Below, piece by piece: positions 6,871 through 54,590 of a DNA stretch of 64,000 nt. The translations under genes were made by a program, and so were the position numbers. How positions within the stretch are numbered: position 1 is the stretch's first letter; each line of letters starts with the position of its first letter. Source of the DNA: Dehalococcoidia bacterium (GTDB taxonomy: Bacteria > Chloroflexota > Dehalococcoidia > CAUJGQ01); the NCBI GenBank assembly GCA_035310145.1, contig DATGEL010000030.1:3419-67418 (forward strand), given 5' to 3'. The notes beneath the pieces are model-generated. The model did not search any database. It had not been told where the DNA came from and saw nothing but the letters and a program-made list of their open reading frames with translations.

Positions 6871-7398
6871 TTACGTGGACTCCCGCTCATCGCCGTGTAC
6901 GGCGACGGTGCCGGCGCCGGCCTGCTCCAGCGCGGCCTTCGCCGTGGCCACCTCGGCGGCTTGGCCGTGCACGATCACCAGCACCTGGCCGGCGCGCAGC
7001 GCCGTCTCATAGATGCGGCGGTGGGCCGCGGGGATGCCGGCGCCGGCCAGCGCTGCGCCCACCGGTCCGAGTTCGCCGGCGATGCGCTCGCCTTCGACTT
7101 CGCCGGCCACCCAGCCGACCACCGGACCGGCCACGAAGATCGGCCCCGTGCCCGGAATGAAAAACGTGCCCGTGTCCAGCAGCAGGTTGGAGAGCGCCGT
7201 CCACAGGCCGCCGTGGCCGCCGTGGTGCCGCACCGCCCCGCCGCTGGTGTAATGACCGGACGTGGCCTCGTCGCCCGCGCCGCGGCCCGCCACGGAGACG
7301 TGCGCCATCGCCACCCCGGCCGTTGCCAGCGCCTTCACCGCGGTCTCCGCCTGCCGGTTGCTCGCGTAGATCGCCACGACCGCCTGCTCGTTTTTCAT
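6871..7398 (-). CDS. DUF1269/general-stress-protein-17M-like membrane protein (glycine-zipper)
   Basis: MKNEQAVVAIYASNRQAETAVKALATAGV is followed by a Gly-rich segment and a C-terminal repeat of the same alpha/beta module. ATG is at 7398 with GGAG upstream. Confidence 0.65.
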   Translation of the reverse strand: MKNEQAVVAIYASNRQAETAVKALATAGVAMAHVSVAGRGAGDEATSGHYTSGGAVRHHGGHGGLWTALSNLLLDTGTFFIPGTGPIFVAGPVVGWVAGEVEGERIAGELGPVGAALAGAGIPAAHRRIYETALRAGQVLVIVHGQAAEVATAKAALEQAGAGTVAVHGDEREST

Positions 7399-7640
7399 CG
7401 CCGCTCCGGCGTTCCACCGATCAGTCGCTGCTCTGTCTCTCACCGCCCCTCACGTGCAGGAACAGGGTACAGGATGGCGTCTGCATGCGGCGCTCCCGCG
7501 GCCGGCTGCCGTTCTGCCGCGGCGCACTAAAGGCCGCTGGCCGGTGGGGCGATACTTGCTTACAGAGGATGTCCGCTTGTTGGGCCGTGCCGGCGTGCAG
7601 CGCCGCGTGGCTGTTCTCGGCCCCGCCCCGGAGGCACTTC

Positions 7641-9275
7641 ATGGCCGATCTGACCGCTCCCGACCACGACCAGGCGCTGCCGGCGGTGATCGAGCCGCCG
7701 CTGGCCGGCGTCACGCGCCAGGAGCGCTTCGACCGCATCGCACGTCTCGCCTGCCGCCTGTTCGACGTGCCCATCGCCCTGCTCACCGGCGCCGACGCGG
7801 ACGGGCGCCACTACCTCGCCGCCGTCGGCCTGCTGGCGGGCGAATTGCCGCATGCGGTGGCGCTCTGCGCCGAGGCGGTGCTGGGCGAGCAGCCGCTGCT
7901 CGTGGAGGACGCGGGTCTCGACTCCCGCTTCGGCGAGGAGCCGCTCGTCTCCGGCTCGCCGTACATCCGCTCATTCGCCGCGCAGCCGCTGCTTGGTCCG
8001 GATGGTCACGGCATCGGCGTGATCTGCATTCTCGATCGGCGCCGGCGCGAGTACCAGGCGGCGGATCTCGCTGCGCTCGCCGACCTGGCGGCGCTGGCCG
8101 CGAACGAGCTCAACGTCGCCGGGCTGGAGCAGGCGCTGGCGCAGGAACGCGGCGCCATGCTGCAGGCCCGGGCGGTGCTGGGCGCCGTCTCCGAAGGGGT
8201 GCTCACCTGCGACGCCAACGGTACGATTCAGTCCTGTAATCTCGCGGGCGAGCGTATCTTCGGCTACGCCGCAACGGAATTGCTCGGCCGTGACCTCGAT
8301 TTCCTCGTGCCCGGCGTCTTCCAGCAGACGGAGAGCGCCACGGCGGCGAGCGGCACGATCAGCGAACGCGTGCTGAGCGACGGTGAACGCGAGACGGTGG
8401 GGCGCCGCCGCTCCGGCGAGCCGTTGCCGCTACTGCTGGCCGTCGGCGCTCTGCCCCAGGAGACCGGCGCCAGCCGCCTGGTGCTGGTGCGGGACCTTTC
8501 CGGCGAGCGGCGCAGCGAGCCGCGCCGGCGCAAGCTCCTGCCGACCGATCTGCGCAGCCTGCCCGATCGCGCCTTCTTCCGCAGCCGCCTGGACCAGGCG
8601 ATGGCCGCCGAGGCGCAGGGCGCCGGCGGCGTGGCGGTGCTGTTGCTGGAGCTGGACAACTGGGAGCGGGTGAACGAGCGCATGGGCGAAAGCGTGGCCG
8701 AGGCGCTGCTGCTGGAGGTGTACCGCCGGCTGCGCGCCTCCCTGCGGCCGGACGATACCGCGGCCTACATGGGCGGCAGCGGCTTCGCCGTGCTCTTCGA
8801 GAACATGAACGCCGCGCGCGATGCCCAGCGCCCGGCCGACCGCATCCTCGGCCAGTTACGCACGCCGCTGACGCACGCGCGGCGTGAGCTGATCGCCGCC
8901 CCGAACATCGGCATTGCGCTCAGCACCTTCTGCCTCGCCGCCGACCGCCAGCCGGACCTGATGTACGAAGCCGGCCAGGCGCTGCGCCAGGCGCGCGCCG
9001 CCGGCCGCTGGCGTAGCCATATCCTGGAGCCGCACGAGCACCCGCTGCTGGGCCTCGGCCTGCCGGACGACGCGCTGATCAGCGTGACGTCCGGCGACCT
9101 GCTTGCCGATCCGGCCGCATCGCAGGCGGGCGAACCGCCGGCCGAGGCCGATTCAGCCCTTGCCCTGCCGCTGACGTGCGCTGCGCCGGACGCCATGCCG
9201 CTGCCGTCCGGCGAGCAGGCCGCCCCTGACCCGGAAGACGGTGCGGGCGAGCGGCGCAGCGCCTCCGCTGCCTGA
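7641..9275 (+). CDS. GAF-PAS-GGDEF-like signalling protein with degenerate GGDEF motif (GGSGF)
   Basis: ATG 7641 lies 6 nt after GGAGG. A GAF region is followed by a PAS segment (SEGVLTCDANGTIQSCNLAGERIFGY). The GGDEF-like domain has LPDRAFFRSRL...LLLELDNWERVNERMGE...AYMGGSGFAVLFE. Confidence 0.8.
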   Translation: MADLTAPDHDQALPAVIEPPLAGVTRQERFDRIARLACRLFDVPIALLTGADADGRHYLAAVGLLAGELPHAVALCAEAVLGEQPLLVEDAGLDSRFGEEPLVSGSPYIRSFAAQPLLGPDGHGIGVICILDRRRREYQAADLAALADLAALAANELNVAGLEQALAQERGAMLQARAVLGAVSEGVLTCDANGTIQSCNLAGERIFGYAATELLGRDLDFLVPGVFQQTESATAASGTISERVLSDGERETVGRRRSGEPLPLLLAVGALPQETGASRLVLVRDLSGERRSEPRRRKLLPTDLRSLPDRAFFRSRLDQAMAAEAQGAGGVAVLLLELDNWERVNERMGESVAEALLLEVYRRLRASLRPDDTAAYMGGSGFAVLFENMNAARDAQRPADRILGQLRTPLTHARRELIAAPNIGIALSTFCLAADRQPDLMYEAGQALRQARAAGRWRSHILEPHEHPLLGLGLPDDALISVTSGDLLADPAASQAGEPPAEADSALALPLTCAAPDAMPLPSGEQAAPDPEDGAGERRSASAA

Positions 9276-9296: not shown

Positions 9297-12053
9297 TTAC
9301 CGCTGGGTGACGACCAGGTTGCGGAAGCGCGCCTCGGCCGTGAGGTTGTCGCCGCCGGTGGCGATGTAGATCTTGCCCGTGCTGAAGCCGTTGTCGCGCG
9401 CCTGGCCCACCTGCGTGCCGTTGATCGTTACCGTGATCGTGTTGCCCACGCAGCTCAACGTCAGCCGGTTCACCTCGCCGTTGCGCTTGATCGCCGACGA
9501 TGGCGTATCGTCGATCAGGCGCGACGGCGTCTCCTGGCCGGGACCGTCCTTCAGCAGACGGAACGTGCCGCTGGCGGGGATGACCGAGAGGTGATAGCCG
9601 CCGGCGTCTGAGTCGCGGCAGCCGATGTTGACGTAGCGATCGGTGAACGTTCCCACCAGGCGCGCATCCACCGTGGTGCTCGTGTCCGCGTATTGGCCGG
9701 GCAGGAACTTGCCATCCAGTCCGCCGCTGGCCTGCTGCTTCTGGATCACGAACTCGCCGTTGGCGTAGCTATACTTTGTCTGGTCCGATCCGGTGGTGTC
9801 GGTGTTGAACAGGCCGGTGCCAGGGTCGCTGAGCGGATCGGCCAGCAGTACCGGGACGCTGTTGGGCGGCGTCTTCGTCACCACCAGGTTGTCGAAGTGC
9901 GTCTCGATCGTCTGCGGGTGGTCCGTGTAGGTGCTGGCGCCGATCAGGAACTGGCCAGTGCTGTACTCCGCTTTGGCGTCCTTCACCGAGGCCACGTTTG
10001 TGCCATTGATGCTGACGGCGATCGTGCTGCCGGAGCAGGTGAGCGCCACGCGGTTCGTGGCCGTGCCCTTGAGAATCGCCGGCGATGCCTGCTCGTTGCG
10101 CAGGTACCGCAGGTCGGCGTTGCTCTCCACGGCGAACAGGCGGTAGGTGCCGGCGCCGAAGTCGACCCAGACGCGGTAGCCCGTGTTGGTGTCGCCGTAG
10201 CGGCAGCCGAGCACGACGAAGCGGTTGTCGGCGCTGTCGATCATGCGCACGTCCACCGCCAGCGTCGCATCGTCGTAGCTGTTGGGGATGAACTCCTCCG
10301 GGATCGTCGAGTAGTTTGGATCGGTGAGCTTCACCACGTACTCGCCGCCTGAGTAGCCGAGCTGGTAGTGCGAATCGCCGGCGGAGTTCTCCAGAATGCC
10401 CGTCTTCGGGTCAGAGAAGCCGTCCTGGGCGAGGATCGTCGCCGGCAGCGCACCGGCGGCCGGCGGCGGCGCGACGGTCGGCGGCGCCGTGGTCGGCGCG
10501 GTTGTCGGCGGCGCCGTCGGGACGGCCGTGCGTTGCGGTGTGGTGGAGGCGGGCGCTGCGGCCGAGGCCGACGGCGCGACCGTGGGCACGGCGCTGGCCG
10601 TGCTGGTGACGGCCGGCGTCGGGTTGAGATTGCCCGGCTTCAGCGTGCCGGCGCCGCCCGAAGTCGGGGCGATGGGCACGGGCGACGGCGTCGGTTTCGG
10701 CTGCGGGCCGCCGCAGTTGGCCGCGGCCAGCGCGATCGCGCCGGCGATCGCGGCGAGCACCAGCACCGCGCCGCCGATCAGCAGCGGCGTGCGCGACTTC
10801 TTGCCCGTGCCGCCGGGCGCGGCTCCTCCACCGGCCGGCGGCGTCCACAGCGGCTGCGGCGCGGCCTGCCAGGTGCCGCCCGCCTGCTGTTGCCAGCCCG
10901 GCGGCATCGGCGGCGCCGCGGCCGGCCGCGGGGTCTGCGGCCGCGCGCCGATGCCCGGCAGCGAGACGACCGTCGGCGCTTCGTCCTCCGGCACGGGGCG
11001 CTCGCTGCCGGGCGGTGTGGCAGGCGGCGCCTGGCCCGCGCTGCCGGCCACTACCGTTGGTTCACTCGGCGTCCGCGTCGCGGGGCGCAGGTACATGCCC
11101 GAGCCTTCGATCGGGCTGCCGGCCATGCTGCCGCCGCTGGCGATGCTGCCGCGCTCGGAAGGCTGCCACGGGCGCGTCTGCGCCAGCGCCTCCGGGATGC
11201 CGCGGCCGCTGCTTTCGGTCGCGGCCTGTGCCAGCGCCTGGACGAACGCGCCGCACGTGGCGAAACGCTCGTCCGGCTCGCGCGCGAGCGCCTGCTCCAC
11301 CACGGCCGCCAGCGCGGCGCCGAGCTGCGGATTGCGGCTCTGCAGCGAGGGCGGCGATTCGTACAGGTGCTTGGCCATCACCGCTTCCGGCGTGGCCGCG
11401 GCGAAGGGCACGCTGCCGGTCAGCATCTCGTAGGCGACGATGCCCAGCGCATATTCGTCGGCCCGCCCGTCCAGCGGCTCGCCGCGGATCTGTTCCGGCG
11501 CCATGTAGGCCGGTGTGCCCAGCCCGGTGCCGATCTGGGTCAGCGGCTCGCCCGTGCGGCTCTCGTTCGTCTCCGTCTCCAGGATGCGGGCGAGGCCGAA
11601 GTCGGCCACAATCGGCGTCTCGTCCTCGGTGAGCAGGATGTTGCTGGGCTTGATGTCGCGGTGAATCACGCCGCGGGCGTGGGCGAAATCGAGCGCCGCG
11701 GCAACCGGCGCGAGCAGGCGCGCGACGCTGGCCGGGGGCAGCGGCTGGCCCAGGCGGTGCCAGAGCGTGCCGCCGGGGATGTAGCGGTAGACGATGTAGG
11801 CCTGGCCGTCCGCTTCGCCGTAGTCGAACACGGGCAGGATGTTGGGGTGTTCGAGGCGGGCCAGCACCTCCGCCTCGCGGCGGAAGCGGGCGAGAAAGGC
11901 GGGCTGGCCGGCGAGCTGGGCGCCGATGACTTTGACCGCCACGTCGCGGCGCAGGCTGGGCTGAAAGGCGCGGTAGACGCTCGCCATGCCGCCTTCGCCC
12001 AGCGGCTCGCGCACCACGTACTGCCCGAACGTCGTCCCGGCCGGCAGGGTCAC
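9297..12053 (-). CDS. serine/threonine protein kinase (Hanks-type) with TM segment and two tandem C-terminal concanavalin-like (DUF1080-type) extracellular domains
   Basis: GTG 12053 has GAGGGA upstream. Kinase motifs are GEGGMASVYRA, HRDIKPSNILL, DFGLA and APE. A Pro-rich linker and a TM helix (LLIGGAVLVLAAIAGAIALAAA) follow. The ~190-aa module occurs twice, ending in ...HFDNLVVTK and ...ARFRNLVVTQR. Confidence 0.9.
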   Translation of the reverse strand: MTLPAGTTFGQYVVREPLGEGGMASVYRAFQPSLRRDVAVKVIGAQLAGQPAFLARFRREAEVLARLEHPNILPVFDYGEADGQAYIVYRYIPGGTLWHRLGQPLPPASVARLLAPVAAALDFAHARGVIHRDIKPSNILLTEDETPIVADFGLARILETETNESRTGEPLTQIGTGLGTPAYMAPEQIRGEPLDGRADEYALGIVAYEMLTGSVPFAAATPEAVMAKHLYESPPSLQSRNPQLGAALAAVVEQALAREPDERFATCGAFVQALAQAATESSGRGIPEALAQTRPWQPSERGSIASGGSMAGSPIEGSGMYLRPATRTPSEPTVVAGSAGQAPPATPPGSERPVPEDEAPTVVSLPGIGARPQTPRPAAAPPMPPGWQQQAGGTWQAAPQPLWTPPAGGGAAPGGTGKKSRTPLLIGGAVLVLAAIAGAIALAAANCGGPQPKPTPSPVPIAPTSGGAGTLKPGNLNPTPAVTSTASAVPTVAPSASAAAPASTTPQRTAVPTAPPTTAPTTAPPTVAPPPAAGALPATILAQDGFSDPKTGILENSAGDSHYQLGYSGGEYVVKLTDPNYSTIPEEFIPNSYDDATLAVDVRMIDSADNRFVVLGCRYGDTNTGYRVWVDFGAGTYRLFAVESNADLRYLRNEQASPAILKGTATNRVALTCSGSTIAVSINGTNVASVKDAKAEYSTGQFLIGASTYTDHPQTIETHFDNLVVTKTPPNSVPVLLADPLSDPGTGLFNTDTTGSDQTKYSYANGEFVIQKQQASGGLDGKFLPGQYADTSTTVDARLVGTFTDRYVNIGCRDSDAGGYHLSVIPASGTFRLLKDGPGQETPSRLIDDTPSSAIKRNGEVNRLTLSCVGNTITVTINGTQVGQARDNGFSTGKIYIATGGDNLTAEARFRNLVVTQR

Positions 12054-12229
12054 CGGAATCCCTCGTGCGTGCGGCTGAAGGCGTGCTGCAAGTAAACAGC
12101 AACATCATACACGCCGCCGCGCCGCCTGGATCGCCGCCGTTGTCTTCACCAACAGGAAACAGGGAGCGAGGAACGAGGAGCGAGGAAAGAGGAAAGAGAG
12201 CACAGGGGTTAGGGATGGGAGCCTAACCT

Positions 12230-12972: not shown

Positions 12973-14148
12973 ATGGACTTCCGCTTCTCCGCGGCCGAAG
13001 AGGCGTTTCGCGCCGAGCTGCTCGGCTTTCTGCGCGAGGTCGCGCCGCCCGGCTGGGAGCGGCGCTTCGCCGGCGATGCGGCCGCGCTCTGGGGCTTCGA
13101 GCGCGAGTTTCAGCGCAAGCTGGCCGAGCGGCGCTGGCTGGCGCTGCCCTGGCCGCACGAGCTGGGCGGTTTCGGCGCCAGCTATATGCAGCAACTGATC
13201 TTCAACGAGACGATGGCCTACAACCGCGCGCCCTCGTTCGTGAACATGGGCGTCGCCTGGGTCGGGCCCTCGATCATGACCTACGGCACGGACGAGCAGA
13301 AGCGCCGCTACGTGCGCCGCATCGCCGAGGGCGAGGATATCTGGTGCACGCTCTACTCCGAGCCGGGCGCCGGCTCCGACCTCGCCAGCCTGCAAACCCG
13401 CGCCGAACGTGACGGCGACGAGTACGTGATCAACGGCCAGAAGATCTGGACGACCTACGCACACCTCTCCGATTACGGCTGGCTCGCCGCCCGCACCGAC
13501 CCCGCCGCGCCCAAGCATAAGGGCATCAGCACCTTCGTCGTGCCCATGAAAGCGCCGGGTGTGCAGGTGCGGCCGCTGGTGAACATGGCGGACGGGCACG
13601 AGTTCAACGAGGTCTTTTTCGAGAACGTGCGCGTGCCGAAGGAGAACCTGGTCGGCGAGGAGAACCGCGGCTGGTACCAGGTCGCCACCGGCCTCGACAT
13701 CGAGCGCACGGCGATCGGCAGCCCGGCCACGGCGCGCCGCACGCTGGAAGACCTGGTGCAGTTCTGCAAGACGGCGCGGAGAGGCGGCCGGGCGCTGATC
13801 GACGATCCGATCGCGCGGCACACGCTGGCCGACCTCGCGGTCAGCATCGACATGGCGAAGATGCTGTCGTACCGCATTGCCTCGATGCAGACGGCGGGCC
13901 GGGCGCCGGGCTATGAGGCATCGAGCGCCAAGATGTTCGGCACGGAGCTGAACCAGCGGCTGGCGAACGCGGCAGTGGGCCTCCTCGGCCTCGCCGGCCA
14001 GCTCGACGGCGTCGACGCCCGCGCCCCGCTGCACGGCCGGCTCAAGTATCTCTACCTGCGCATGGTGGCGAACACGATCGAGGGCGGCACCAGCGAGATC
14101 CAGCGCACCGTGATCGCCACCCGCGGCCTCGGTCTGCCGCGGGGCTGA
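12973..14148 (+). CDS. acyl-CoA dehydrogenase
   Basis: Full-length ACAD: YSEPGAGSDLASLQTRAERDGDEYVINGQKIWTT, and the C-terminus EGGTSEIQRTVIATRGLGLPRG. SD GAAGGTGG is upstream of the ATG. Confidence 0.9.
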   Translation: MDFRFSAAEEAFRAELLGFLREVAPPGWERRFAGDAAALWGFEREFQRKLAERRWLALPWPHELGGFGASYMQQLIFNETMAYNRAPSFVNMGVAWVGPSIMTYGTDEQKRRYVRRIAEGEDIWCTLYSEPGAGSDLASLQTRAERDGDEYVINGQKIWTTYAHLSDYGWLAARTDPAAPKHKGISTFVVPMKAPGVQVRPLVNMADGHEFNEVFFENVRVPKENLVGEENRGWYQVATGLDIERTAIGSPATARRTLEDLVQFCKTARRGGRALIDDPIARHTLADLAVSIDMAKMLSYRIASMQTAGRAPGYEASSAKMFGTELNQRLANAAVGLLGLAGQLDGVDARAPLHGRLKYLYLRMVANTIEGGTSEIQRTVIATRGLGLPRG

Positions 14149-16962: not shown

Positions 16963-18126
16963 ATGGCACGCTTCAGCCTGCACACGAAGATCTGCGACCT
17001 CCTCGGCATCGAATATCCGGTGATCCTCGCCGGCATGGGGCCGACGGCGGGGCGAGCCGGTGGCGCCGCGGCCACGGCGCCGCTCGTGGCGGCCGTCTCC
17101 AACGCCGGCGGCCTCGGCGTGCTGGGCGGCGCCGGCTCCACGCCCGAGCAGTTGCGCGAGGAGATCCGCAAGGTCCGCGGTCTCACGAGCAAGCCGTTCG
17201 GCGTCGATCTGCTGCTGCCCTCCAACGTCGTGCGCCAGCCGGGCGGCAGCAACGGCGGCGCTACGGACTGGCGGGCACAGATCCCGCATCCCTACTGGGA
17301 GGCGATCGCCGGGCTGAAGGCGCAGTTCGGTATTCCCGACGTACAGCGCGAAGGTTCAGCGCCGGGGGTGGGCGCCTGGCGCATCGAGGACCAGGTGCAG
17401 GTGCTGTTCGACGAGCGGGTGCCCGTCTTCGCCTCCGGCCTGGGCAACCCCGCGCCCTACGTGCCGCGCTGCCGCGAACTGGGGATCAAGGTCACCGCCC
17501 TCGTCGGCAATGTGAAGAACGCGCGGCGCGTGGCCGACGCCGGCGTCGACATCGTCGTGGCGCAGGGGCACGAGGCCGGCGGCCATACGGGACGCATCGG
17601 CACACTGGCGCTGGTGCCGCAGGTGGTCGACGCGGTTGCGCCGGTGCCGGTGGTGGCCGCGGGCGGCATCGGCGACGGGCGCGGGCTGGCGGCGGCGCTC
17701 GCGCTCGGCGCGCACGGCGTCTGGTGCGGCACGGCGTTCCTGGCGACGGAAGAGGCGAATATTGCGTCGCTGCAGAAGCAGAAGATCGTGGAGGCGAACG
17801 AAGAGGACACGCGCGTGACGCGGCTCTACAGCGGCAAGACGATGCGGAACATCACCAACCCGCTGATCGAGGCGTGGGACGCACTCAATATCAAGGCGCT
17901 GCCGATGGGTCTGCAAGGGTTGCTGATCGCGGATCTGCTCGCCGGCATCCGTGCCTCCGACAAAGAAGAGCTGCTGATGAACGCCGCCGGCCAGATCTCC
18001 GGCCTGATCGGCGGCCTGCGCCCCGCGCGAGCCGTGCTCGACGAGATCGTGGACGGCGCCGCCGAGATCCTGACGCGCGAGCTGCCCGCGCGGGCGCAGG
18101 TCGCGGAAGGAAGCACGGTACGCTGA
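16963..18126 (+). CDS. nitronate monooxygenase (NMO/2-nitropropane dioxygenase family, FMN-dependent)
   Basis: Family signatures are VILAGMGP, GGLGVLG and GVDIVVAQGHEAGGHTG. AGAGGAGAGG lies upstream of the ATG. Confidence 0.9.
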   Translation: MARFSLHTKICDLLGIEYPVILAGMGPTAGRAGGAAATAPLVAAVSNAGGLGVLGGAGSTPEQLREEIRKVRGLTSKPFGVDLLLPSNVVRQPGGSNGGATDWRAQIPHPYWEAIAGLKAQFGIPDVQREGSAPGVGAWRIEDQVQVLFDERVPVFASGLGNPAPYVPRCRELGIKVTALVGNVKNARRVADAGVDIVVAQGHEAGGHTGRIGTLALVPQVVDAVAPVPVVAAGGIGDGRGLAAALALGAHGVWCGTAFLATEEANIASLQKQKIVEANEEDTRVTRLYSGKTMRNITNPLIEAWDALNIKALPMGLQGLLIADLLAGIRASDKEELLMNAAGQISGLIGGLRPARAVLDEIVDGAAEILTRELPARAQVAEGSTVR

Positions 18127-19615: not shown

Positions 19616-19642
19616 CCCCTCTCCATGAAATGGAGAGGGGGC
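19616..19642. repeat. palindromic element A: CCCCCTCTCCAT-GAA-ATGGAGAGGGGG, member of dispersed CTCTCC/GGAGAG repeat family
   Basis: 12-bp perfect stem between two CoA-transferase genes. Followed by GGCCGGGGGGTGAGGCCACG-ATG (start of the next gene), nearly identical to the sequence before the ATG at 56255. Confidence 0.7.
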
Positions 19643-19659
19643 CGGGGGGTGAGGCCACG

Positions 19660-20919
19660 ATGACCGCTGATCTGCCCTTGCCGCTCGCCGGCATTCGCGT
19701 GGCGGACTTCTCCTGGTTCGCCGCTGGCCCCGTGGCCGGCGCGGTGCTGGCGCAGTTCGGCGCCGAAGTTATTCGCGTCGAGTCCGAGTCGCACCTCGAC
19801 GGCCTGCGCACCACCATGCCCGTGCCGCCGGGCAGCGAAGGCAGCGTCAACGTCTCCGGCTACTACAACAACTTTAACGCGAACAAGCGCTGCTTCACGC
19901 TCAACATGAGCCGGCCCGAGGCCCGCGCCGTCGCGCTGGAGCTGCTTGCAACCTGCGACGTGATGCTGGAGAACTACACGCCGCGCATCGTGGAGAAGTG
20001 GGGGCTGACCTACGCCGACGTCGCCGCGGTGCGGCCGGACATCATCTACGTCAACATCCCCATGCAGGGCAATTGGGGGCCGCACCGCGACTTTTTGGGC
20101 TTCGGCGGTGTGCTGGCCCCGGTCAGCGGCTACAGCTACCTCGCCGGCTGGCCCGACCGCGCCCCGATCGGCGTCGGCACCAACTATCCCGACTACGTGA
20201 TCAACCCCGGCCACGCCACGATCGCCATCCTCGCCGCGCTGCGCCACCGCGACCGCACGGGGGAAGGGCAGCAGATCGAGCTCTCGCAGCTCGAATCGAC
20301 GCTCAACGGCCTCGGCCCGGCGCTGATGGAGGCAGCCGCTAACGGCACCGTGCCCCAACGCCAGGGTAACCGCTGCGCCTACGCCGCGCCGCATGCCGCC
20401 TTCCGCTGCCAGGACCGGCCGGCCACGGGCACGGGCGCGCCCGAAGACCGCTGGTGCGTGATCTCGGTCTACACCGACGCCCAGTGGCAGGCGCTGAAGG
20501 CGGAGATGGGCGAGCCGGACTGGGCCGCGGAGACGCGCTTCGGCACGCTGCTCGGCCGCAAGCAGCACGAGGACGAGCTGGAGCGCTGCACCGAGGCGTG
20601 GACGCGCACGCTCAGCGCCGAGGCGGTGGCGGAGCGGCTGCAGGACCGCGGTGTGCCGGCCGGCATCGTGCAAAGCGCCGAGGACGTGCTCGACCACGAC
20701 CCGCAGCTGCAGGCGCGCGGTCTCTACGTCTATCTCGACCACCCGGAGGCGGGCCGCACCGCCTACGACGGCCCGCACTTCGTGCTGAGCGCCACGCCGG
20801 GCGTGCTGCATACGCCGGCGCCGCTGCTGGGCGAGGCGAACGACTACATCGTGAACGAGCTGCTGGGCGTGGACGGCGAGCGCGCCGCCGACCTGCTGGT
20901 CAACCAGATCGTATATTAG
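19660..20919 (+). CDS. CoA transferase family III (CaiB/BaiF) protein
   Basis: Start at MTADLPLPLAGIRVADFS, with ATG 19660 preceded by GGTGAGG. The family is conserved throughout. Confidence 0.85.
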   Translation: MTADLPLPLAGIRVADFSWFAAGPVAGAVLAQFGAEVIRVESESHLDGLRTTMPVPPGSEGSVNVSGYYNNFNANKRCFTLNMSRPEARAVALELLATCDVMLENYTPRIVEKWGLTYADVAAVRPDIIYVNIPMQGNWGPHRDFLGFGGVLAPVSGYSYLAGWPDRAPIGVGTNYPDYVINPGHATIAILAALRHRDRTGEGQQIELSQLESTLNGLGPALMEAAANGTVPQRQGNRCAYAAPHAAFRCQDRPATGTGAPEDRWCVISVYTDAQWQALKAEMGEPDWAAETRFGTLLGRKQHEDELERCTEAWTRTLSAEAVAERLQDRGVPAGIVQSAEDVLDHDPQLQARGLYVYLDHPEAGRTAYDGPHFVLSATPGVLHTPAPLLGEANDYIVNELLGVDGERAADLLVNQIVY

Positions 20920-24519: not shown

Positions 24520-24739
24520 CGGGGGCGGCAGCACCCCCAGCCGCCGCCGGCATCCTGCTCGCCAGCCAGTTCGACCGGCTGCGCCTGGGTACAGGTTGGG
24601 AGCGCTGTGACGACGAAGGGCGCTGGCGGCCCATGTCGCCACGTGTTCCCGCGTAACGCTACGCAAAACGCTCCGCCTCCAGCCTGGGATCGACGAGCGT
24701 TCGCGCCTACCCGGCCTTCTACTCCCTGTTCTCTCTCCC

Positions 24740-24826
24740 CTAACCCCTGGGCAAGCCCAGTCCCCGCGTGGCGATCACGTTGCGCTGGATCTCGCTGGTG
24801 CCCGCGGCGATCGTGGCGGCATTGTG
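24740..24826 (-). pseudogene. remnant of acyl-CoA dehydrogenase 3' end (last ~27 codons), part of a chimeric decayed ORF
   Basis: 24748-24817 is nearly identical (1 mismatch in ~70 nt) to the 3' end of the ACAD gene at 32336-32405. It encodes ...TIAAGTSEIQRNVIATRGLGLPRG*. The upstream in-frame sequence switches to an SDR-like N-terminus (RVALITGGRDIGR). Confidence 0.6.
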
Positions 24827-29155: not shown

Positions 29156-32125
29156 TCAAAGCCTGGCGAGGCCGCGGCGGTGGGCGTACGTGGCCGCTTC
29201 GACACGGTTCGCCGTGCCGGTCTTGGCCAGAATGTGGTTCACATGCCGGTCCACGGTGTAGCGGCTGAGCACCAGGGCGGCGGCGATCTCGGGATTGCTG
29301 CGCCCCGCCGCCACCAGCCGCAGCACCTGCACTTCCCGCTCCGAGAGGCCATCTGGGTAGCGTGGCCGCGACGGCCGGCGCTGCTGCAACTGCTCGGCTC
29401 GGGCCAGGTCGGCCAGTACATGCTCGCGCCAGCGGTCGGCGGCGCCGATCCGATCGTAAACGGCGAGCGCGTCGCTGAACGTCGCCAGTGCCTGCCGTGG
29501 CTGCCCGGCGGCCAGCAGAGCACGGCCCCACAGGTGGAGACCCTCCGCCTCCTCCCAGGGCAGCGTGTAGCGCTGAAAGATCTGGTGCGCCTCCGCGAAC
29601 CGCTCCGCGGCAGCAGGGTGGTCGCCGCTCGCGGCCGCGACGACCGCTTCTGCAAGCCGGACTCGACCGGCCAGCCCGCGCCAGTCCTCGCCCGCCGCCA
29701 ACACCGCCTGGCACCGCTCCACGTGCGCCTGCGCTGCCGAAAGGTCGCCTCGCTCCGCCACCAGTAGCGCCAGCTCGATCCGCGCCCGGAGTTCAAAGGG
29801 CAGATGCTGCCCGTCGAGGGCGACCGCAAGACTCTCCTCTGCCAATGCATCGGCCCGCTGATATTCCCCCTGGAGCTGGTAGAGCCGCGCCAGCCAGAGG
29901 GCGAAGTCGATCTGGGCCAGCCGGACGCCCGTTCGTCGCGCACACTCGCGCACCGCCTCCCACGCTGCGGCGGCCTCCTCCCAATGGCCACTGAAGAAGG
30001 CGAGCAGCGGTGAGGCCAGCATCTCCACGGCCTGCTCGAAGGCGGTCGGCCCCTGGTTCGCCAGCCGCCGCCTCGCCTCCGCCAACTCGCCCAGGTGCGC
30101 GTAGGCACCAGGCGTCTGCGCGAGCACCCGGCCCTGCCAGTCATGGCCCCTTCGCGGGTGACTCAGATCGCGCTCATACCAGCGCAAGGCGTCTGTGGGG
30201 TCGCCCAGCCAGACGAGAACGTTCCCCACCCAACTGGCGTTGATGCTCGCCAGCGGGTCACCGCGCCGATCGGCGGCCGCCCACATCTGCTCGCAGGCGT
30301 CCAGACCCTCCCTCAGCCGTCCGCTGGCCAGGAAGTCCAGCCCCTGGAAGTAACTGGCCAGCTCTACAAAGTCCTTACGACCAAGCTCGCCCGCGATCGC
30401 CAGCATTCGCTCCGCAGCGTGCAACCCGGCCCCTGTCTGTACGCCGCTCCAGCTCGCGCCGTGAAGCCCCGCGTACAGATCGAAGCTCGCCACCGTCGCC
30501 GGCGCATCGCCAAGGACGCCCGCGGCCGTCTGCAGATGGTGCATGGCGCGCGACAGATCCTGGGTGGCCGCATTGCCGAAGGTGAGACACCGGCCCAAGC
30601 GGCCGTGTGCGCGGCCGGCGAGAACTGACTCGCCGATCTCCTCGTACAGCCCGATCGCTTGCTCTAGACAGACGATGGCGTCCCTGTAGCGATGGAATCC
30701 GGCGGCGACGAGCAGTTGCCCCAGCCGGAGCAAGAGGTCCGCGCGTCGCTTCGGCGCCGCCCCCTGTGCCGTCAAGCGCTCCAGCGCCGCCTGCCAGGAC
30801 GAGGCGGCCTCTTCATAGGCAAACGCCCCCTGCGCCGCCTCCCCGGCGCGCAGCAGGTAATCGATCGCCGTCTCGCCATCGGCGGCGGCGCCGGCGAGAC
30901 GGTAATGGTCCGCCAGGGCCGCCAGGTGCGGAGCCAGGTTGCCCGCGGCCACCTGCTCAATCGCCTCCGCCGCGCGCAGATGCAGGAGTTGCCGCCGCGG
31001 CAAGCTCAGCTCCTCCAGCAGGGTTTGCCGGATGAGCGCGTGGGCAAAGTCGTAGATACCGGCGTGTTCCTGCAGCAACCCGGCCGCTTCGACCTCCTCC
31101 AGCGGCGCCATCAGCTCGCTCGCCGTCCCGCCACATAGCCTCAGCAGCACCTCGTAGCGCGCACCCTCGGCCAGCACCGCGGCGACCTCGAGCAGCGCAC
31201 CCGCTTCCGCGCTCAACCGCGCCAGGCGACTGCCGATCACTTCACGCAGGCCAATCGGGACGCGCCAACCGGAACCCGCCGTGGCCGCGCTGGAGAGGTC
31301 CACGCCCTCGCCCACAAGCTGACGCACCAACTCGGTCACATAAAAGGGATTGCCCGCGGTGCTGGCATAGACGCGGGCGGCAACCTGCGGTGCGGCCGCT
31401 GCACCACTGAGCTGGCCGATGATGCTGGCCACAGCGGGTTCCGGTAGCGGCGGCAGCCGCAGGCGGGTCACCGGCTGCTGGCGGCTGAGTTCGGCGAGCG
31501 TCATGTGGAGGGGATGATCGCGTGGCACCTCTACCGTGCGATAGGAAAGCACAAGTTGCAGGGGCGCTTCGGCCAGGCGGCGGCCAAGGTGCTGTAGGAG
31601 CACCAGCGACGCTGCGTCGGCCCAGTGCAGATCCTCCAGCACGAGCAACAACCCGCCGGGCGCGCTGTGTGCGGCCGCGAAGAGCAGCTCCGTGACCGCG
31701 TCGAAGAGCCGGGGCCGATCCAGTTCGGGAGACTCGGCCCGCCCGGCGGACGGATCGGGGAGGCGGTCGGCCAGCTCCGGCAGGAGCACTGCGACTCCGG
31801 CCATGCTGCTGCCCGACTGGCTCCAGAGGCGTTCGCTGTCGCCGGCGCGCACGAGACCGCGTAACGCTTCGACGAAAGGGCCATAGGGCAAGCCGGCGTC
31901 GCTGTCGTACGCGTGACCCAGCAGCACGAGCGTGCCCGCGGTGTGCGCGCGCTCGGCCAGTTCGGTCAGTAGGCGGGTCTTGCCGATGCCGGGTTCACCG
32001 AAGACAAAGCCGACCCCGCCGGCAACCTGACGGGCAACGGCGAGGTCGGCCAGGAGCGTGGCCAGTTCCTGCTCGCGCCCCACCAATGAGGGCTGCCGAC
32101 GGCGGAGTGGCACGGTCCCTCCCAC
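29156..32125 (-). CDS. large LuxR-family regulator (N-terminal AAA/NB-ARC-like ATPase, TPR-like middle, C-terminal LuxR HTH)
   Basis: The P-loop is FVFGEPGIGKTRL. The C-terminal HTH is [43 protein letters not shown]. Start is GTG 32125, or GTG 32113 which has an adjacent GGGAGGG. Confidence 0.85.
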   Translation of the reverse strand: MGGTVPLRRRQPSLVGREQELATLLADLAVARQVAGGVGFVFGEPGIGKTRLLTELAERAHTAGTLVLLGHAYDSDAGLPYGPFVEALRGLVRAGDSERLWSQSGSSMAGVAVLLPELADRLPDPSAGRAESPELDRPRLFDAVTELLFAAAHSAPGGLLLVLEDLHWADAASLVLLQHLGRRLAEAPLQLVLSYRTVEVPRDHPLHMTLAELSRQQPVTRLRLPPLPEPAVASIIGQLSGAAAAPQVAARVYASTAGNPFYVTELVRQLVGEGVDLSSAATAGSGWRVPIGLREVIGSRLARLSAEAGALLEVAAVLAEGARYEVLLRLCGGTASELMAPLEEVEAAGLLQEHAGIYDFAHALIRQTLLEELSLPRRQLLHLRAAEAIEQVAAGNLAPHLAALADHYRLAGAAADGETAIDYLLRAGEAAQGAFAYEEAASSWQAALERLTAQGAAPKRRADLLLRLGQLLVAAGFHRYRDAIVCLEQAIGLYEEIGESVLAGRAHGRLGRCLTFGNAATQDLSRAMHHLQTAAGVLGDAPATVASFDLYAGLHGASWSGVQTGAGLHAAERMLAIAGELGRKDFVELASYFQGLDFLASGRLREGLDACEQMWAAADRRGDPLASINASWVGNVLVWLGDPTDALRWYERDLSHPRRGHDWQGRVLAQTPGAYAHLGELAEARRRLANQGPTAFEQAVEMLASPLLAFFSGHWEEAAAAWEAVRECARRTGVRLAQIDFALWLARLYQLQGEYQRADALAEESLAVALDGQHLPFELRARIELALLVAERGDLSAAQAHVERCQAVLAAGEDWRGLAGRVRLAEAVVAAASGDHPAAAERFAEAHQIFQRYTLPWEEAEGLHLWGRALLAAGQPRQALATFSDALAVYDRIGAADRWREHVLADLARAEQLQQRRPSRPRYPDGLSEREVQVLRLVAAGRSNPEIAAALVLSRYTVDRHVNHILAKTGTANRVEAATYAHRRGLARL

Positions 32126-32323: not shown

Positions 32324-33511
32324 CTACCCCCGCGGCAAGCCCAGCCCCCGCGTGGCGATCACGTTGCGCTGGATCTCGCTGGTGCCCGCGGCGATCGTGG
32401 CGGAGACGCTGCTCAGGTACATGTGCGCGATGCGGCCGCGCAGCGGCGCCCACTTGCTGCCACGGTCCAGCCCGCCGTACATCCCCAGCATGCGCGTGCC
32501 CAGCCGCGCCACCCGCTGGCTCACCTCCGAGCGGTACATCTTGTTCACCGAGGCCTCGTGGTTCGGCACCTGGCCGCGCTTCTGGATGCTGATCACGCGG
32601 TAGGAGAACAGCCGCGCAATCTCCGCCTCCACCAGCTTCTCCGCCAGCTCCAACCGCAGCCCCGGCGTGAGATACAGCGGCTTGCCCGCGTCGCTCTTCG
32701 CCTCGCGCGCGTATTTGATCAGGTCGTTGACCGTGTGCTTGAGGCCGATGCTGGCGCCGATGTTCGAGCGCTCGAAGTCCAGCAGCGTGGCGCCGACATA
32801 CCAGCCGCGGTTCTCCTCGCCCACCCGGTTCTTCACCGGCACGCGCACGCTGTCGAAGAACTCCTGGTTGAAGACGTGGTCGTTCGCCATCGTCACCAGC
32901 GGCTGCACGGAGAGGCCCGGCGTCTTCATGTCGAGCAGCAGCATGGAGATGCCGCGATGCTTCGGCGCCTCCGGGTCGGTGCGGGCGAGCATGAACATCC
33001 AGTCGGCGCGGTGAGCGCCGCTGGTCCAGATCTTCTGGCCGTTCAGCACGTAGTCATCGCCGTCGCGCACGGCACGGGTTTGCAGACTGGCCAGGTCGGA
33101 GCCGGAGCCGGGCTCCGAGTAGCCCTGGCACCACTGGATCTCGCCGCTGGTGATGCGCGGCAAGTGCTCCTGCTTCTGCTCGTCCGTGCCGTAAAGGATC
33201 AGCGTGGGGCCGATCATCTGCACGCCCATACCGCCCACCTGCGGCGCCCGCGCCTCGGCCATCTCTTCGTTGAAGATGAACTGCTCGCTGACGCTCATGC
33301 CGGCGCCGCCGTACTCTTTGGGCCAGTGCGGCGCGATCCAGCGCTTCTGCCCCAGCGCCGTGCGCCACTGCTTGCGGAAGTCTTCTTCCTGGCGGCTGAG
33401 GTCGTAGCGCTCCATCTCCGGGTTGGCGAAGCGCGACGGCAGGTTCTCGTTGATGAACCCGCGCACCTCACTGCGGAAGGCGGCCTCTGCGGCGGTGTCC
33501 TGGAACTGCAT
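32324..33511 (-). CDS. acyl-CoA dehydrogenase
   Basis: ATG 33511 has GGAGG upstream. It is full-length and about 75% identical to the ACAD at 54924..56108, with long identical blocks. Confidence 0.9.
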   Translation of the reverse strand: MQFQDTAAEAAFRSEVRGFINENLPSRFANPEMERYDLSRQEEDFRKQWRTALGQKRWIAPHWPKEYGGAGMSVSEQFIFNEEMAEARAPQVGGMGVQMIGPTLILYGTDEQKQEHLPRITSGEIQWCQGYSEPGSGSDLASLQTRAVRDGDDYVLNGQKIWTSGAHRADWMFMLARTDPEAPKHRGISMLLLDMKTPGLSVQPLVTMANDHVFNQEFFDSVRVPVKNRVGEENRGWYVGATLLDFERSNIGASIGLKHTVNDLIKYAREAKSDAGKPLYLTPGLRLELAEKLVEAEIARLFSYRVISIQKRGQVPNHEASVNKMYRSEVSQRVARLGTRMLGMYGGLDRGSKWAPLRGRIAHMYLSSVSATIAAGTSEIQRNVIATRGLGLPRG

Positions 33512-33658
33512 CGTCACGCTCCTCCGTTGCCGGCCGCTGAACGGTCCGGATCGTACGCGCGGGCGCCGAATGACGTTCGATCGCCGCGCCACGTCCGATC
33601 ATGGCGCGGCGAGACGAATTTCGCAAGAGGGAAGCGCGCGGCGAAAGCTTCGGAGAGC

Positions 33659-39800: not shown

Positions 39801-39853
39801 TCGCTGCGCAAAATGCGGTACTTGTTGAGCACCAGCTCGTCGAAGGGGAGCAT
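36848..39853 (-). CDS. serine/threonine protein kinase (Hanks-type) with Pro-rich repeats, TM segment, large extracellular domain and Gly/Thr/Ser-rich repetitive C-terminal tail
   Basis: Start at MLPFDELV (ATG 39853). Kinase motifs are GRGTFGSVYKA, HRDLKPGNVFL, DFGVA and SPE. The Pro-rich repeat is PAPPEPTLYEPRTP, repeated. The TM helix is LALAAVLLVAAGVGI. Confidence 0.9.
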   Translation of the reverse strand: MLPFDELVLNKYRILRSEGRRDGLLGRGTFGSVYKAHEELADRFVAIKELGLDSADLETQQEEALRRFLTEGRLGLRVRHPNILEVHAIEPYEEGYLLVMELAESGDLKGFLQRGRPPLQQAITIATGIARGLQAAHERGIVHRDLKPGNVFLMEDGTPKVADFGVAHIPQAVGGYLSMTRTGFQPGTVIYMSPEQASGRRIDHRSDLYSLAVIFFELLTGTFYVNIQKCRELAQSRAESTPVLEELRFFQVFSEVAFEGEIPRPSTRNPAIPAWLDELVLRGLARNPDDRFQSGREFAEVLQQGELSAASAAAYPPLDATIIEPLTPASLGRPQAEPEALTPAPPADATIVEERTPGPATPPAPPEPTLYEPRTPAPPEPTLYEPRTPPPPEPTLPEVRTPAPPEPTLAEPLTPSRPFAPAADTTVVDLPAPADATPGIRPAARDAGVIEGIAESEEARYVRPPVSPPAVDDHEQQTVYVPLPRRDEPRRSADGAAAAGAGGGAALAGAGGAAGRGGAVGGRTAPEPATGGGIKRLWPLALAAVLLVAAGVGIRFAVAGGKSSPRPTPTTTAANVTASATAAVSSTPNPTASPSPSPTASPTPAPTVTPADKLDVATLLRPNATRLQSFVVAGKNAGDPGQLVLQSQAPDSSGCQRPYIDVYRPDKSGKWASVWDATQQPSAEKALLPAVKKSGDQCFPNVEALLVQPLIDNGPPHGLASIILDEKGTRRLVAFSFDDAAKPVALDFDLQTTPGATVELTDGKPQGVHIIENAYASGDSGVNGGYDQPIGKFDEILTWDAGARTFKQGHHSLALNCTSGKITALGGSALQAQCADGSYTAVAVGGSTKYDANVAFADLKAGDDVTFAVDEATLAPADPLNALPTAASLSDAAAKARKAPPPSTTGRPATTGTTGVPSSSGTSGTTGRPATTGTTGVPSTSGATGTSGSTGVPSTSGTGGTTGGSTGGFSTGGSTTGGTNGGFSTGGGTTGGTNGGFSTGR
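36858..36980. repeat. in-frame 42-nt tandem repeat x3 encoding GGTTGGTNGGFSTG-like units at the kinase C-terminus
   Basis: Copies at 36858-36899, 36900-36941 and 36942-36980 are near-identical. Confidence 0.8.
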
Positions 39854-53378: not shown

Positions 53379-54557
<1,179 letters not shown>

Positions 54558-54590
54558 GGGTTGCCTCCGTCTGCGTCTCGGCCTTCTATC

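What the first reader, a model, noticed from the sequence alone, without database searches (positions are those of the whole stretch)
9297..12053. Hanks-type Ser/Thr kinase with two tandem extracellular concanavalin-like (DUF1080-type) domains
After the kinase domain, Pro/Thr linker and single TM helix, the periplasmic or extracellular part contains two copies of a roughly 190-aa beta-sandwich module ending in ..HFDNLVVTK and ..ARFRNLVVTQR. These endings resemble DUF1080/3-keto-disaccharide-hydrolase-like lectin folds. This suggests a carbohydrate- or glycan-sensing receptor kinase. The domain pairing is uncommon. A 70-nt purine-rich tract (GAGGAA-like repeats, 12150-12220) lies in its upstream region.
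Basis: inference. Interest (0 to 1): 0.55.

Follow-up and report, generated by a model that had tools for sequence, protein, structure and literature searches.

The report
Receptor kinase with twin lectin-fold ectodomain
This is a real, intact membrane receptor Ser/Thr kinase from a Chloroflexota bacterium whose outside part is two old copies of a sugar-binding-type (concanavalin/DUF1080/CBM66-like) beta-sandwich. It is a sound but fairly ordinary new member of a kinase architecture already described in other bacteria.

Summary
ORF 9297-12053 (-) encodes a 918-aa protein. It has a complete Hanks kinase domain (Pfam Pkinase, E = 9e-46, all catalytic motifs present), a Pro/Gly/Ala-rich cytoplasmic linker, one TM helix (residues 422-447) and a Pro/Ala/Thr-rich outer linker. 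Two ~190-aa modules follow, 34% identical to each other (E = 2e-28).

AlphaFold models are confident (pLDDT 90-92) and all-beta. Foldseek places them in the ConA-like jelly-roll class, closest to CBM66 (TM 0.75-0.78) and to DUF1080 crystal structures. Module 2 passes the PF06439 threshold. Module 1 passes only Laminin_G_3, and only just.

The duplication is old: the module-1 and module-2 copies of four orthologues form separate clades. Both modules are under stronger purifying selection (dN/dS 0.11-0.17) than the kinase domain (0.27).

The module belongs to a family seen in Chloroflexota (at least 2286 clusters), mostly missed by Pfam. It is also fused to proteases, TPR and propeller domains, and about 11% of the top representatives are kinases.

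Kinase + single TM + periplasmic DUF1080 is already described in Planctomycetota, so the pairing is not new. Glycan sensing is plausible but untested, and no sugar genes lie nearby. The purine tract is real but is not conserved in orthologous loci.

The parts
9297..12053 (-). Complete CDS of the receptor Ser/Thr kinase (918 aa, GTG start, TAA stop at 9297-9299)
   Evidence: ORF list. GC3 is 0.92. An identical protein, P0048, and a 77% identical orthologue, P0049, exist in metagenomes. The GTG start is conserved in three orthologous loci.
11259..12020 (-). Hanks-type kinase domain, residues 12-265. Motifs: G-loop G19-V26, K41, E60, HRD 131-133, DFG 151-153, APE 185-187
   Evidence: Pfam Pkinase E = 8.9e-46, 156.8 bits against a cut-off of 31.7. 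NCBIfam matches the kinase part of PknB-type kinases. Motif positions were read from the sequence.
10791..11198 (-). Cytoplasmic juxtamembrane linker, residues 286-421, low complexity rich in Pro/Gly/Ala
   Evidence: Composition is P 19%, G 15%, A 14%. dN/dS is 0.41 against the orthologue, i.e. relaxed.
10713..10790 (-). Single transmembrane helix, residues 422-447, with KKSR on the cytoplasmic side
   Evidence: Kyte-Doolittle 19-aa maximum of 2.66. It is the only segment reaching 1.6.
10452..10712 (-). Extracytoplasmic Pro/Ala/Thr-rich stalk, residues 448-534
   Evidence: Composition is P 23%, A 23%, T 18%. Identity to the orthologue is 54% and dN/dS is 0.42.
9873..10451 (-). ConA-like module 1, residues 535-727, ending THFDNLVVTK; family-invariant Cys617 and Cys673
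   Evidence: Laminin_G_3 scores 27.8 bits (cut-off 27.6) and PF06439 scores 21.2 bits, below its 26.8 cut-off. The model is all-beta with pLDDT around 90. dN/dS is 0.17. Invariant columns are listed.
9300..9872 (-). ConA-like module 2, residues 728-918, ending ARFRNLVVTQR; family-invariant Cys812 and Cys868
   Evidence: PF06439 scores 31.8 bits, above the 26.8 cut-off, and covers profile positions 24-186 of 187. The model has pLDDT 92.3 and pTM 0.88. The Foldseek top match is CBM66 4b1m, TM 0.75-0.78, rmsd 2.7-2.9 A. dN/dS is 0.11.
12059..12064 (-). Shine-Dalgarno-like GAGGGA, 5 nt before the GTG start
   Evidence: Read directly from the sequence.
12087..12113 (-). Conserved upstream block CGTGTATGATGTTGCTGTTTACTTGCA; likely promoter or leader element (inferred)
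   Evidence: Near-invariant in the upstream regions of the orthologues P0049 (L003) and P0051 (L001), in otherwise divergent intergenic DNA.
12141..12160 (-). Second conserved upstream block GTTTCCTGTTGGTGAAGACA
   Evidence: Alignment of three orthologous upstream regions.
12151..12200 (+). Purine-rich tract (pyrimidine-rich on the gene strand), weak 7-nt repeat; function unknown and not conserved
   Evidence: 90% purine; the most strand-asymmetric 60-mer in the window. TRF finds period 7 with 5.1 copies. Absent upstream of the orthologues. No Rfam match.

Best explanation
The gene encodes a type-I-like (N-in, C-out) receptor Ser/Thr kinase of a Chloroflexota bacterium.

Shown:
- an intact, catalytically competent-looking Hanks kinase domain in the cytoplasm;
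- one TM helix;
- a flexible Pro/Ala/Thr stalk;
- an ectodomain of two anciently duplicated, strongly conserved ConA-like jelly-roll modules. These belong to a divergent branch of the DUF1080/CBM66 (PF06439) group, seen here in Chloroflexota.

Inferred:
- The modules are non-catalytic ligand-binding units, most likely for a carbohydrate or envelope glycan. The two paralogous sites would give bivalent or dual recognition.
- Each module is probably stabilised by one disulfide between its two family-invariant cysteines.
- Ligand binding changes the oligomeric state or packing of the receptor. As established for PknB/PknD-type kinases, this would promote trans-autophosphorylation of the Thr-rich activation loop (T172, T176, T180) and then phosphorylation of cytoplasmic targets.

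The gene appears to be monocistronic, with its own conserved upstream elements. Its targets cannot be read from the neighbourhood.
For: Architecture:
- Pfam Pkinase E = 9e-46, with PF06439 in two stretches and Laminin_G_3.
- All kinase motifs are present.
- There is a single TM helix with a positive-inside flank.

Fold:
- AF2 pLDDT is 90.2 for both modules and 92.3 (pTM 0.88) for module 2.
- The Foldseek top tandem hit is 4jqt/BT3469 (E = 2.5e-12), followed by tandem galectins and laminin LG4-5 pairs.
- For the single module the top hit is CBM66 (TM 0.75-0.78, rmsd 2.7-2.9 A). The DUF1080 structures 3imm and 3s5q and the AL2 hydratase 8v31 also match.
- A profile of the module family hits 3imm (E = 0.0024) and 4jqt (E = 0.053) by sequence.

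Duplication and selection:
- The two modules are 34% identical, E = 2e-28.
- Module-1 and module-2 copies of the window protein, P0049, P0050 and P0051 form separate clades.
- dN/dS is 0.17 and 0.11 for the modules, 0.27 for the kinase domain and 0.40-0.42 for the linkers.

Binding-cassette behaviour:
- The same module is fused to S1-C proteases, TPR, DUF4397, beta-propeller repeats and kinases.
- 17 of the top 150 representatives carry an N-terminal kinase with 1-3 modules.
- The module is compact (~190 aa), like CBM66 (~160 aa), and fits the enzyme AL2 poorly (TMq 0.53, rmsd 13 A).

Precedent:
- Single-TM Ser/Thr kinases with periplasmic DUF1080 are reported in Planctomycetota (PMC11032199).
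- DUF1080 and CBM66 designate the same domain (PMC5673643).
Against: - No ligand is known for any member of this module family.
- Ligand-contacting residues of CBM66 could not be compared, because no residue-level structural alignment was available.
- The ectodomain has only one Trp in 384 aa, whereas many carbohydrate-binding sites use aromatic platforms.
- No CAZyme, sugar transporter or cell-wall gene lies within about 12 kb. The neighbours are a GAF-PAS-GGDEF protein, a DinB_2 protein, an acyl-CoA dehydrogenase, FTHFS and a LuxR regulator.
- The neighbourhood is not conserved among orthologues apart from the acyl-CoA dehydrogenase.
- Module 1 falls below the PF06439 gathering score.
- The disulfides and the activation mechanism are inferred, not shown.
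Confidence: 0.6

Rival explanations
1. The ectodomain binds a non-carbohydrate ligand (protein, peptide or lipid, as many LamG/LNS and other ConA-like domains do), or it serves mainly to anchor, localise or oligomerise the kinase at the cell envelope rather than to sense a soluble glycan.
For: Module 1 scores best as Laminin_G_3. Foldseek hits include the laminin LG4-5 pair, Gas6 LG pairs, neurexin LNS domains and botulinum toxin binding domains. There are no sugar-related neighbours. The ectodomain has only one Trp. Fusions to proteases and TPR proteins would also fit a general surface-targeting module.
Against: The closest single-domain structural match is a true carbohydrate-binding module, CBM66. 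The only Pfam family passed comfortably is PF06439, and all of its characterised members act on sugars.
Confidence: 0.25
2. The modules are active DUF1080-type enzymes (3-keto-glycoside 1,2-lyase/hydratase, like BT2157/AL2) tethered to the membrane. The kinase would then report on or accompany catalysis.
For: PF06439 is named after this activity, and BT2157 and AL2 are members of the family. The AL2 structure 8v31 appears among the Foldseek hits.
Against: The fit to AL2 is poor (TMq 0.53, rmsd 13 A) compared with CBM66. The modules are about 190 aa, whereas the enzymes are about 250 aa with five 'finger' loops around a catalytic channel. There are no partner genes nearby: neither the Gfo/Idh/MocA oxidoreductase nor the sugar-phosphate-isomerase-like lyase that accompany BT2157/AL2. 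The ectodomain has only four His residues in all.
Confidence: 0.06
3. The purine/pyrimidine tract at 12151-12200 is a functional cis-regulatory element of the kinase gene, for example a triplex/H-DNA-forming or protein-binding tract that modulates its promoter.
For: It is the most strand-asymmetric 60-mer in the window and exceeds all 100 shuffles. It abuts the conserved upstream block at 12141-12160.
Against: It is absent upstream of the 77% identical orthologue (L003) and of P0051 (L001), whereas two other upstream blocks are conserved. There is no Rfam match and no promoter- or terminator-like site. It sits directly after the stop codon of the upstream DinB-like gene, so it may simply be low-complexity spacer.
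Confidence: 0.1

Closest known systems
Single-pass Ser/Thr kinases with a periplasmic DUF1080 domain in Planctomycetota (survey in Genome Biol Evol 2024, PMC11032199)
   Same: The architecture is the same: an N-terminal Hanks kinase, one TM helix and a C-terminal extracytoplasmic DUF1080/PF06439-type domain.
   Different: The phylum differs (Chloroflexota). Here there are two anciently duplicated modules. They belong to a divergent branch that Pfam recognises only marginally: 31.8 and 21.2 bits against a cut-off of 26.8. The ligand is unknown in both cases.
CBM66 of Bacillus subtilis levanase SacC (PDB 4b1m, 4azz)
   Same: It is the best single-domain structural match (TM 0.75-0.78, rmsd 2.7-2.9 A). 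It is a compact non-catalytic jelly-roll of similar size. DUF1080 and CBM66 are the same domain under two names (PMC5673643).
   Different: Sequence identity is only 16-19%. CBM66 is appended to a glycoside hydrolase and binds terminal fructose of levan. The module here is appended to a kinase, and its ligand-binding residues were not compared.
BT2157 / AL2, DUF1080 3-keto-glucoside lyase/hydratase (PDB 8v31)
   Same: The Pfam family is the same (PF06439), and so is the beta jelly-roll core.
   Different: The enzymes are larger, with finger loops and a metal-containing catalytic channel, and they sit in operons with oxidoreductases. Superposition is poor (TMq 0.53, rmsd 13 A), and no partner genes are present here.
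PknB/Stk1-type PASTA receptor kinases
   Same: This is the closest kinase-domain family in NCBIfam (285 bits over residues 10-281). The overall logic is the same: kinase, TM helix, then repeated extracellular binding modules.
   Different: No PASTA repeats are present. The match covers only profile positions 7-272 of 563 and falls below the 450-bit cut-off. The gene is not in a cell-wall or cell-division operon.
BT3469 (PDB 4jqt), a 431-aa protein deposited as 'putative glycosyl hydrolase'
   Same: It is the best Foldseek match to the two-module model (E = 2.5e-12). The module profile also hits it weakly by sequence (E = 0.053).
   Different: It is a 431-aa chain, too short to contain a kinase domain. 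TM scores are low (0.32-0.35), because the relative orientation of the domains differs or is uncertain (pTM of the two-module model is 0.62).

Membership tests
Hanks-type (eukaryotic-like) Ser/Thr protein kinases, Pfam PF00069 | Profile match above the curated threshold | tested here: met
   156.8 bits against a cut-off of 31.7, E = 8.9e-46, covering residues 12-265.
Hanks-type (eukaryotic-like) Ser/Thr protein kinases, Pfam PF00069 | Catalytic motifs: Gly-rich loop, VAIK Lys, alpha-C Glu, HRD, DFG, APE | tested here: met
   GEGGMASV at 19-26, K41 in VAVKV, E60 in RREAE, HRDIKPSN at 131-138, DFG at 151-153 and APE at 185-187.
Hanks-type (eukaryotic-like) Ser/Thr protein kinases, Pfam PF00069 | Phosphotransfer activity | not testable with these tools
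   Needs an in vitro autophosphorylation assay.
PF06439 (DUF1080 / 3-keto-disaccharide hydrolase / CBM66) | Profile match above the gathering score, tested for each module | tested here: inconclusive
   Module 2 scores 31.8 bits, above the 26.8 cut-off, over profile positions 24-186 of 187. Module 1 scores 21.2 bits, below the cut-off, and just passes Laminin_G_3 instead (27.8 against 27.6).
PF06439 (DUF1080 / 3-keto-disaccharide hydrolase / CBM66) | ConA-like beta jelly-roll fold resembling solved family members | tested here: met
   Model pLDDT is 92.3 and pTM 0.88. Foldseek gives CBM66 4b1m at TM 0.75-0.78, and the DUF1080 structures 3imm, 3s5q and 8v31 all at probability 1.00.
PF06439 (DUF1080 / 3-keto-disaccharide hydrolase / CBM66) | Catalytic and metal-binding residues of BT2157/AL2 (Glu103, Lys245, Gln273, His275) | not tested
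   No residue-level structural alignment was available. The sequence profile does not reach 8v31.
PF06439 (DUF1080 / 3-keto-disaccharide hydrolase / CBM66) | Carbohydrate binding (CBM66 function) | not testable with these tools
   Needs a glycan array or ITC on the isolated ectodomain.
Architecture class 'single-TM STK with periplasmic DUF1080' (PMC11032199) | N-terminal kinase, exactly one TM helix, DUF1080-type domain on the extracytoplasmic side | tested here: met
   Domain order. One TM helix with KKSR on the kinase side. Two family-invariant Cys per module fit an oxidising compartment (inference). The architecture is described.
PknB/Stk1 PASTA kinases (NF033483) | Extracellular PASTA repeats and a full-length profile match | tested here: not met
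   Only the kinase part matches (profile positions 7-272 of 563), at 285 bits against a cut-off of 450. Pfam finds no PASTA domain.

The most novel reading that the evidence does not exclude
The 'ARFDNLVVTQR' module may be a largely unannotated surface-binding cassette, seen so far in Chloroflexota, for a polymer of the cell's own envelope or matrix. In that case the tandem modules on this kinase would be the functional counterpart of the PASTA repeats of PknB. Chloroflexota would then monitor their unusual cell envelope through a lectin-fold receptor kinase, with two old paralogous sites reading two different features of the polymer.
Probability: 0.12. Interest if true: 0.6.

Novelty: new member of a known kind. 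Interest (0 to 1): 0.25.

Why it matters
Bacterial Hanks kinases are abundant, but very few have a known extracellular signal. A compact, confidently modelled, strongly conserved two-module lectin-fold ectodomain is a tractable case for ligand discovery. It can be expressed alone and screened on glycan arrays.

The work also shows that the module belongs to a sizeable family seen in Chloroflexota (at least 2286 clusters at 50% identity). Pfam mostly fails to annotate it: only 13 of 47 close relatives carry PF06439. The module is reused on kinases, proteases, TPR proteins and propeller proteins. Identifying its ligand would therefore annotate many surface proteins in a poorly studied phylum.

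The finding does not overturn anything. The architecture is already described in Planctomycetota.

Tried and rejected
- The exact look-up of the window protein failed. The collection's identical protein, P0048, is stored with V as its first residue, which probably explains the failure. The look-up of P0048 worked.
- A sequence search of the ectodomain against the PDB found nothing. A family profile gave only weak hits to 3imm and 4jqt, so fold comparison was needed.
The single-protein scan found one Chloroflexi MAG at 88% identity, with the kinase part cut off by the contig end.
- I looked for operon partners such as FHA or PP2C proteins, sugar transporters and CAZymes within about 12 kb. None were found.
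- I considered that the gene really starts at the upstream ATG (MMLLFTC...), as annotated for P0050 and P0051, and rejected it. That ATG is out of frame here, and an in-frame stop lies at 12105-12107. In L003 the corresponding ATG opens only an 8-codon ORF. The GTG is conserved in all three loci.
- The Rfam scan and the promoter/terminator scan of the upstream region found nothing.
- The 12-mer shared between the tract region and 24738-24749 extends to only about 16 nt, so it is not a repeat family.
- The listing of cluster members returned no organism names.
Full report
**1. The observation**

The minus-strand ORF 9297..12053 (918 aa, GTG start) exists exactly as described. Its third-position GC of 0.92 identifies it as the genuine coding frame among many overlapping spurious ORFs of this 70% GC DNA. 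An identical 918-aa protein (P0048) and a 77% identical 909-aa orthologue (P0049) are present in JGI metagenomes. The P0048 contig has the same local gene order as the window.

Pfam finds a protein kinase domain at residues 12-265 (E = 8.9e-46). It also finds PF06439 (3-keto-disaccharide hydrolase, formerly DUF1080) in two stretches and Laminin_G_3 at 593-711.

All Hanks motifs can be read directly from the sequence:
- G-loop GEGGMASV at 19-26
- K41
- E60
- HRDIKPSN at 131-138
- DFG at 151-153
- APE at 185-187
- a Thr-rich activation loop

There is a single hydrophobic segment, residues 422-447 (Kyte-Doolittle 2.66). It is preceded by KKSR. No other 19-aa window reaches 1.6. The linker before it (286-421) is Pro/Gly/Ala-rich. 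The one after it (448-534) is 23% Pro, 23% Ala and 18% Thr.

The two C-terminal modules are 535-727 (ending THFDNLVVTK) and 728-918 (ending ARFRNLVVTQR). They align end to end at 34% identity, E = 2e-28.

**2. The fold**

The ectodomain has no sequence-level match in the PDB. AlphaFold2 with a 15-sequence alignment gives an all-beta two-module model with mean pLDDT 90.2 and pTM 0.62. The lower pTM suggests that the relative orientation of the two modules is uncertain. Module 2 alone gives pLDDT 92.3 and pTM 0.88.

Foldseek against the PDB gives these results:
- For the pair, the top hit is 4jqt/BT3469 (E = 2.5e-12). Tandem-repeat galectins and laminin LG4-5 pairs follow.
- For the single module, the top hit is CBM66 of B. 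subtilis (4b1m; TM 0.75-0.78 normalised by the target, rmsd 2.7-2.9 A).
- After CBM66 come a galectin-like protein, the galactocerebrosidase lectin domain and GH16 glucanases.
- The DUF1080 structures 3imm and 3s5q and the AL2 hydratase 8v31 also match.

A profile of the module family hits 3imm (E = 0.0024) and 4jqt (E = 0.053) by sequence.

Scanned separately, module 2 passes the PF06439 gathering score (31.8 against 26.8 bits, nearly full-length). Module 1 does not (21.2 bits) and just passes Laminin_G_3 (27.8 against 27.6).

The modules are a divergent branch of the ConA-like clan, nearest to DUF1080/CBM66.

**3. The module family**

The word-indexed search found 47 relatives of the ectodomain. 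The exhaustive HMMER search found 2286 representative clusters at E <= 1e-3, 737 at E <= 1e-10 and 65 at E <= 1e-30.

Taxonomic evidence is thin. The named relatives of the module are Chloroflexota and Dehalococcoidia MAGs. Named kinase-domain relatives are mostly Chloroflexota (including Dehalococcoidia and Anaerolineales) but include single Planctomycetes and Thermoanaerobaculia entries. The closest genome hit is an uncultured Chloroflexi MAG at 88% identity. Most sequences are unnamed metagenome proteins, and a look-up for names returned none.

Only 13 of the 47 close relatives carry a precomputed PF06439 hit, and 21 carry no Pfam domain at all. Pfam therefore largely misses the family.

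Family members have 1-4 tandem modules. They are fused to S1-C proteases, TPR repeats, DUF4397, beta-propeller repeats and kinases. Of the top 150 representatives, 17 have an N-terminal Hanks kinase with 1, 2 or 3 modules.

The family-invariant positions include two cysteines per module, here C617/C673 and C812/C868. They also include a GE(Y/F) motif, VDxR, CR, Y, N, ING, D, G and the C-terminal F-D/R-N-L-V motif. Two invariant cysteines in an extracytoplasmic module suggest a disulfide. This is an inference, because I could not measure distances in the model.

**4. Evolution**

In a neighbour-joining tree of modules, the module-1 copies of the window protein, P0049, P0050 and P0051 form one clade. 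Their module-2 copies form another. The duplication therefore predates the divergence of these orthologues, whose best local alignments to the window protein (the kinase end, about a third of its length) are only 57-60% identical. Other kinases (P0173, P0210, P0246) show independent internal duplications.

Against the P0049 orthologue, the values are:

| Region | dN/dS |
|---|---|
| Module 2 | 0.11 |
| Module 1 | 0.17 |
| Kinase domain | 0.27 |
| Linkers | 0.40-0.42 |

The ectodomain is thus the most constrained part of the protein. This argues for a specific function for each module.

**5. Context**

The gene is flanked as follows:
- a convergent GAF-PAS-GGDEF gene (7323-9275, 21 nt from the kinase stop codon);
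- a same-strand DinB_2 gene upstream (ending at 12230);
- a divergent acyl-CoA dehydrogenase.

Further out lie FTHFS, a GNAT acetyltransferase domain (on an ORF that overlaps FTHFS on the opposite strand and may be spurious), a LuxR regulator, nitronate monooxygenase, CoA-transferases and similar genes. No CAZyme, sugar transporter, cell-wall gene, FHA protein or PP2C phosphatase is nearby.

Only the acyl-CoA dehydrogenase is shared with the P0049 locus. The P0051 locus is different: it has a cNMP-binding protein upstream and a second kinase downstream. The gene therefore looks monocistronic, and the context says nothing about its signal or targets.

Two short upstream blocks (12141-12160 and 12087-12113) and the GTG start are conserved across three orthologous loci in otherwise divergent DNA. 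A GAGGGA Shine-Dalgarno sequence lies 5 nt before the GTG.

**6. The purine tract**

Positions 12151-12200 are 90% purine on the + strand, so the tract is CT-rich on the gene strand. It is the most asymmetric 60-mer in the window, beyond all 100 shuffles, and it contains a weak 7-nt repeat.

It is absent from the upstream regions of P0049 and P0051. It has no Rfam match and no promoter- or terminator-like consensus. It lies directly after the stop codon of the DinB-like gene. I treat it as real low-complexity spacer with no demonstrated function.

**7. How it most likely works**

Shown: an N-in/C-out single-pass receptor with an intact RD-type Hanks kinase and a tandem, strongly conserved ConA-like ectodomain.

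Inferred: the modules are non-catalytic binding units. Four points support this.
- They are compact and match CBM66 best.
- They fit the AL2 enzyme poorly.
- They lack the oxidoreductase and isomerase-like partners of the BT2157/AL2 pathway.
- The same module is reused on proteins of unrelated function, as carbohydrate-binding modules are.

By analogy with PknB/PknD-type receptor kinases (established knowledge), ligand binding outside would favour dimerisation and trans-autophosphorylation of the activation loop.

The ligand class is a reasoned guess. Carbohydrate is the default, because all characterised PF06439 members act on sugars. A protein or other ligand, as for LamG/LNS domains, is a serious alternative. 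The lack of sugar genes nearby and the single Trp in 384 residues weigh in its favour.

**8. Comparison with known systems, and novelty**

Three things are particular to this case:
- the phylum (Chloroflexota);
- the old two-module arrangement;
- membership of a divergent module family that Pfam annotates poorly.

The protein itself is already in public collections with these Pfam domains precomputed (P0048). I classify it as a new member of a known kind. Its interest is modest, mainly as a tractable target for finding the ligand of an orphan receptor kinase.

Noticed in passing
window 36848-40009 (-): A second Hanks-type kinase of 1053 aa. The kinase domain lies at residues 75-345, and about 700 C-terminal residues have no Pfam match. 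It does not contain the ConA-like module.
   Followed up: partly
window 12087-12113 and 12141-12160 (-); L003 about 7900-7960; L001 about 7950-8020: Two short upstream blocks are conserved across three orthologous kinase loci, together with a conserved GTG start. The annotated N-termini of P0050 and P0051 (MLLLFSC...) are translations of the conserved block and are probably over-extended starts. The same ATG is out of frame in the window and opens only an 8-codon ORF in L003.
   Followed up: partly
window 12203-12214 (-) and 24738-24749 (+): The exact 12-mer CCCTAACCCCTG occurs twice, against 0.13 expected. Both copies lie in pyrimidine-rich DNA, and the similarity extends to only about 16 nt.
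   Followed up: partly
window 54562-54683: A CT-rich 60-mer (78% pyrimidine) is followed almost at once (2 nt later) by a GA-rich 60-mer (75% purine), with complementary CCCCTTTCCCC and GGGAAAGGGG cores. This could form a hairpin near the 5' end of ORF 53379-54698 (-).
   Followed up: no
proteins P0019, P0026, P0032, P0042, P0022, P0031 (alignment A2, columns about 28-110): Several secreted single-module relatives share an N-terminal Cys-containing domain of about 80-90 aa (C.F.LGF.AL..LIP.VVG.C.ENE...Q.T..G.L.WRK.DN.TAFTDG..TW). No Pfam hit is on record for this domain.
   Followed up: no
window 7323-9275 (+): A GAF-PAS-GGDEF (diguanylate cyclase-type) gene converges on the kinase gene with only 21 nt between the two stop codons. 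The first ~100 codons of the listed ORF are probably not coding. The 545-aa gene at the same position in the P0049 locus has no Pfam hit on record.
   Followed up: partly
window 12973-14148, 16963-18126, 19630-20919, 32324-33592, 34424-35710: The window is rich in acyl-CoA dehydrogenase, family III CoA-transferase and nitronate monooxygenase genes. It also contains a large AAA-TPR-LuxR regulator at 29156-32125 (-). This theme of fatty-acid and organic-acid metabolism appears unrelated to the kinase.
   Followed up: no
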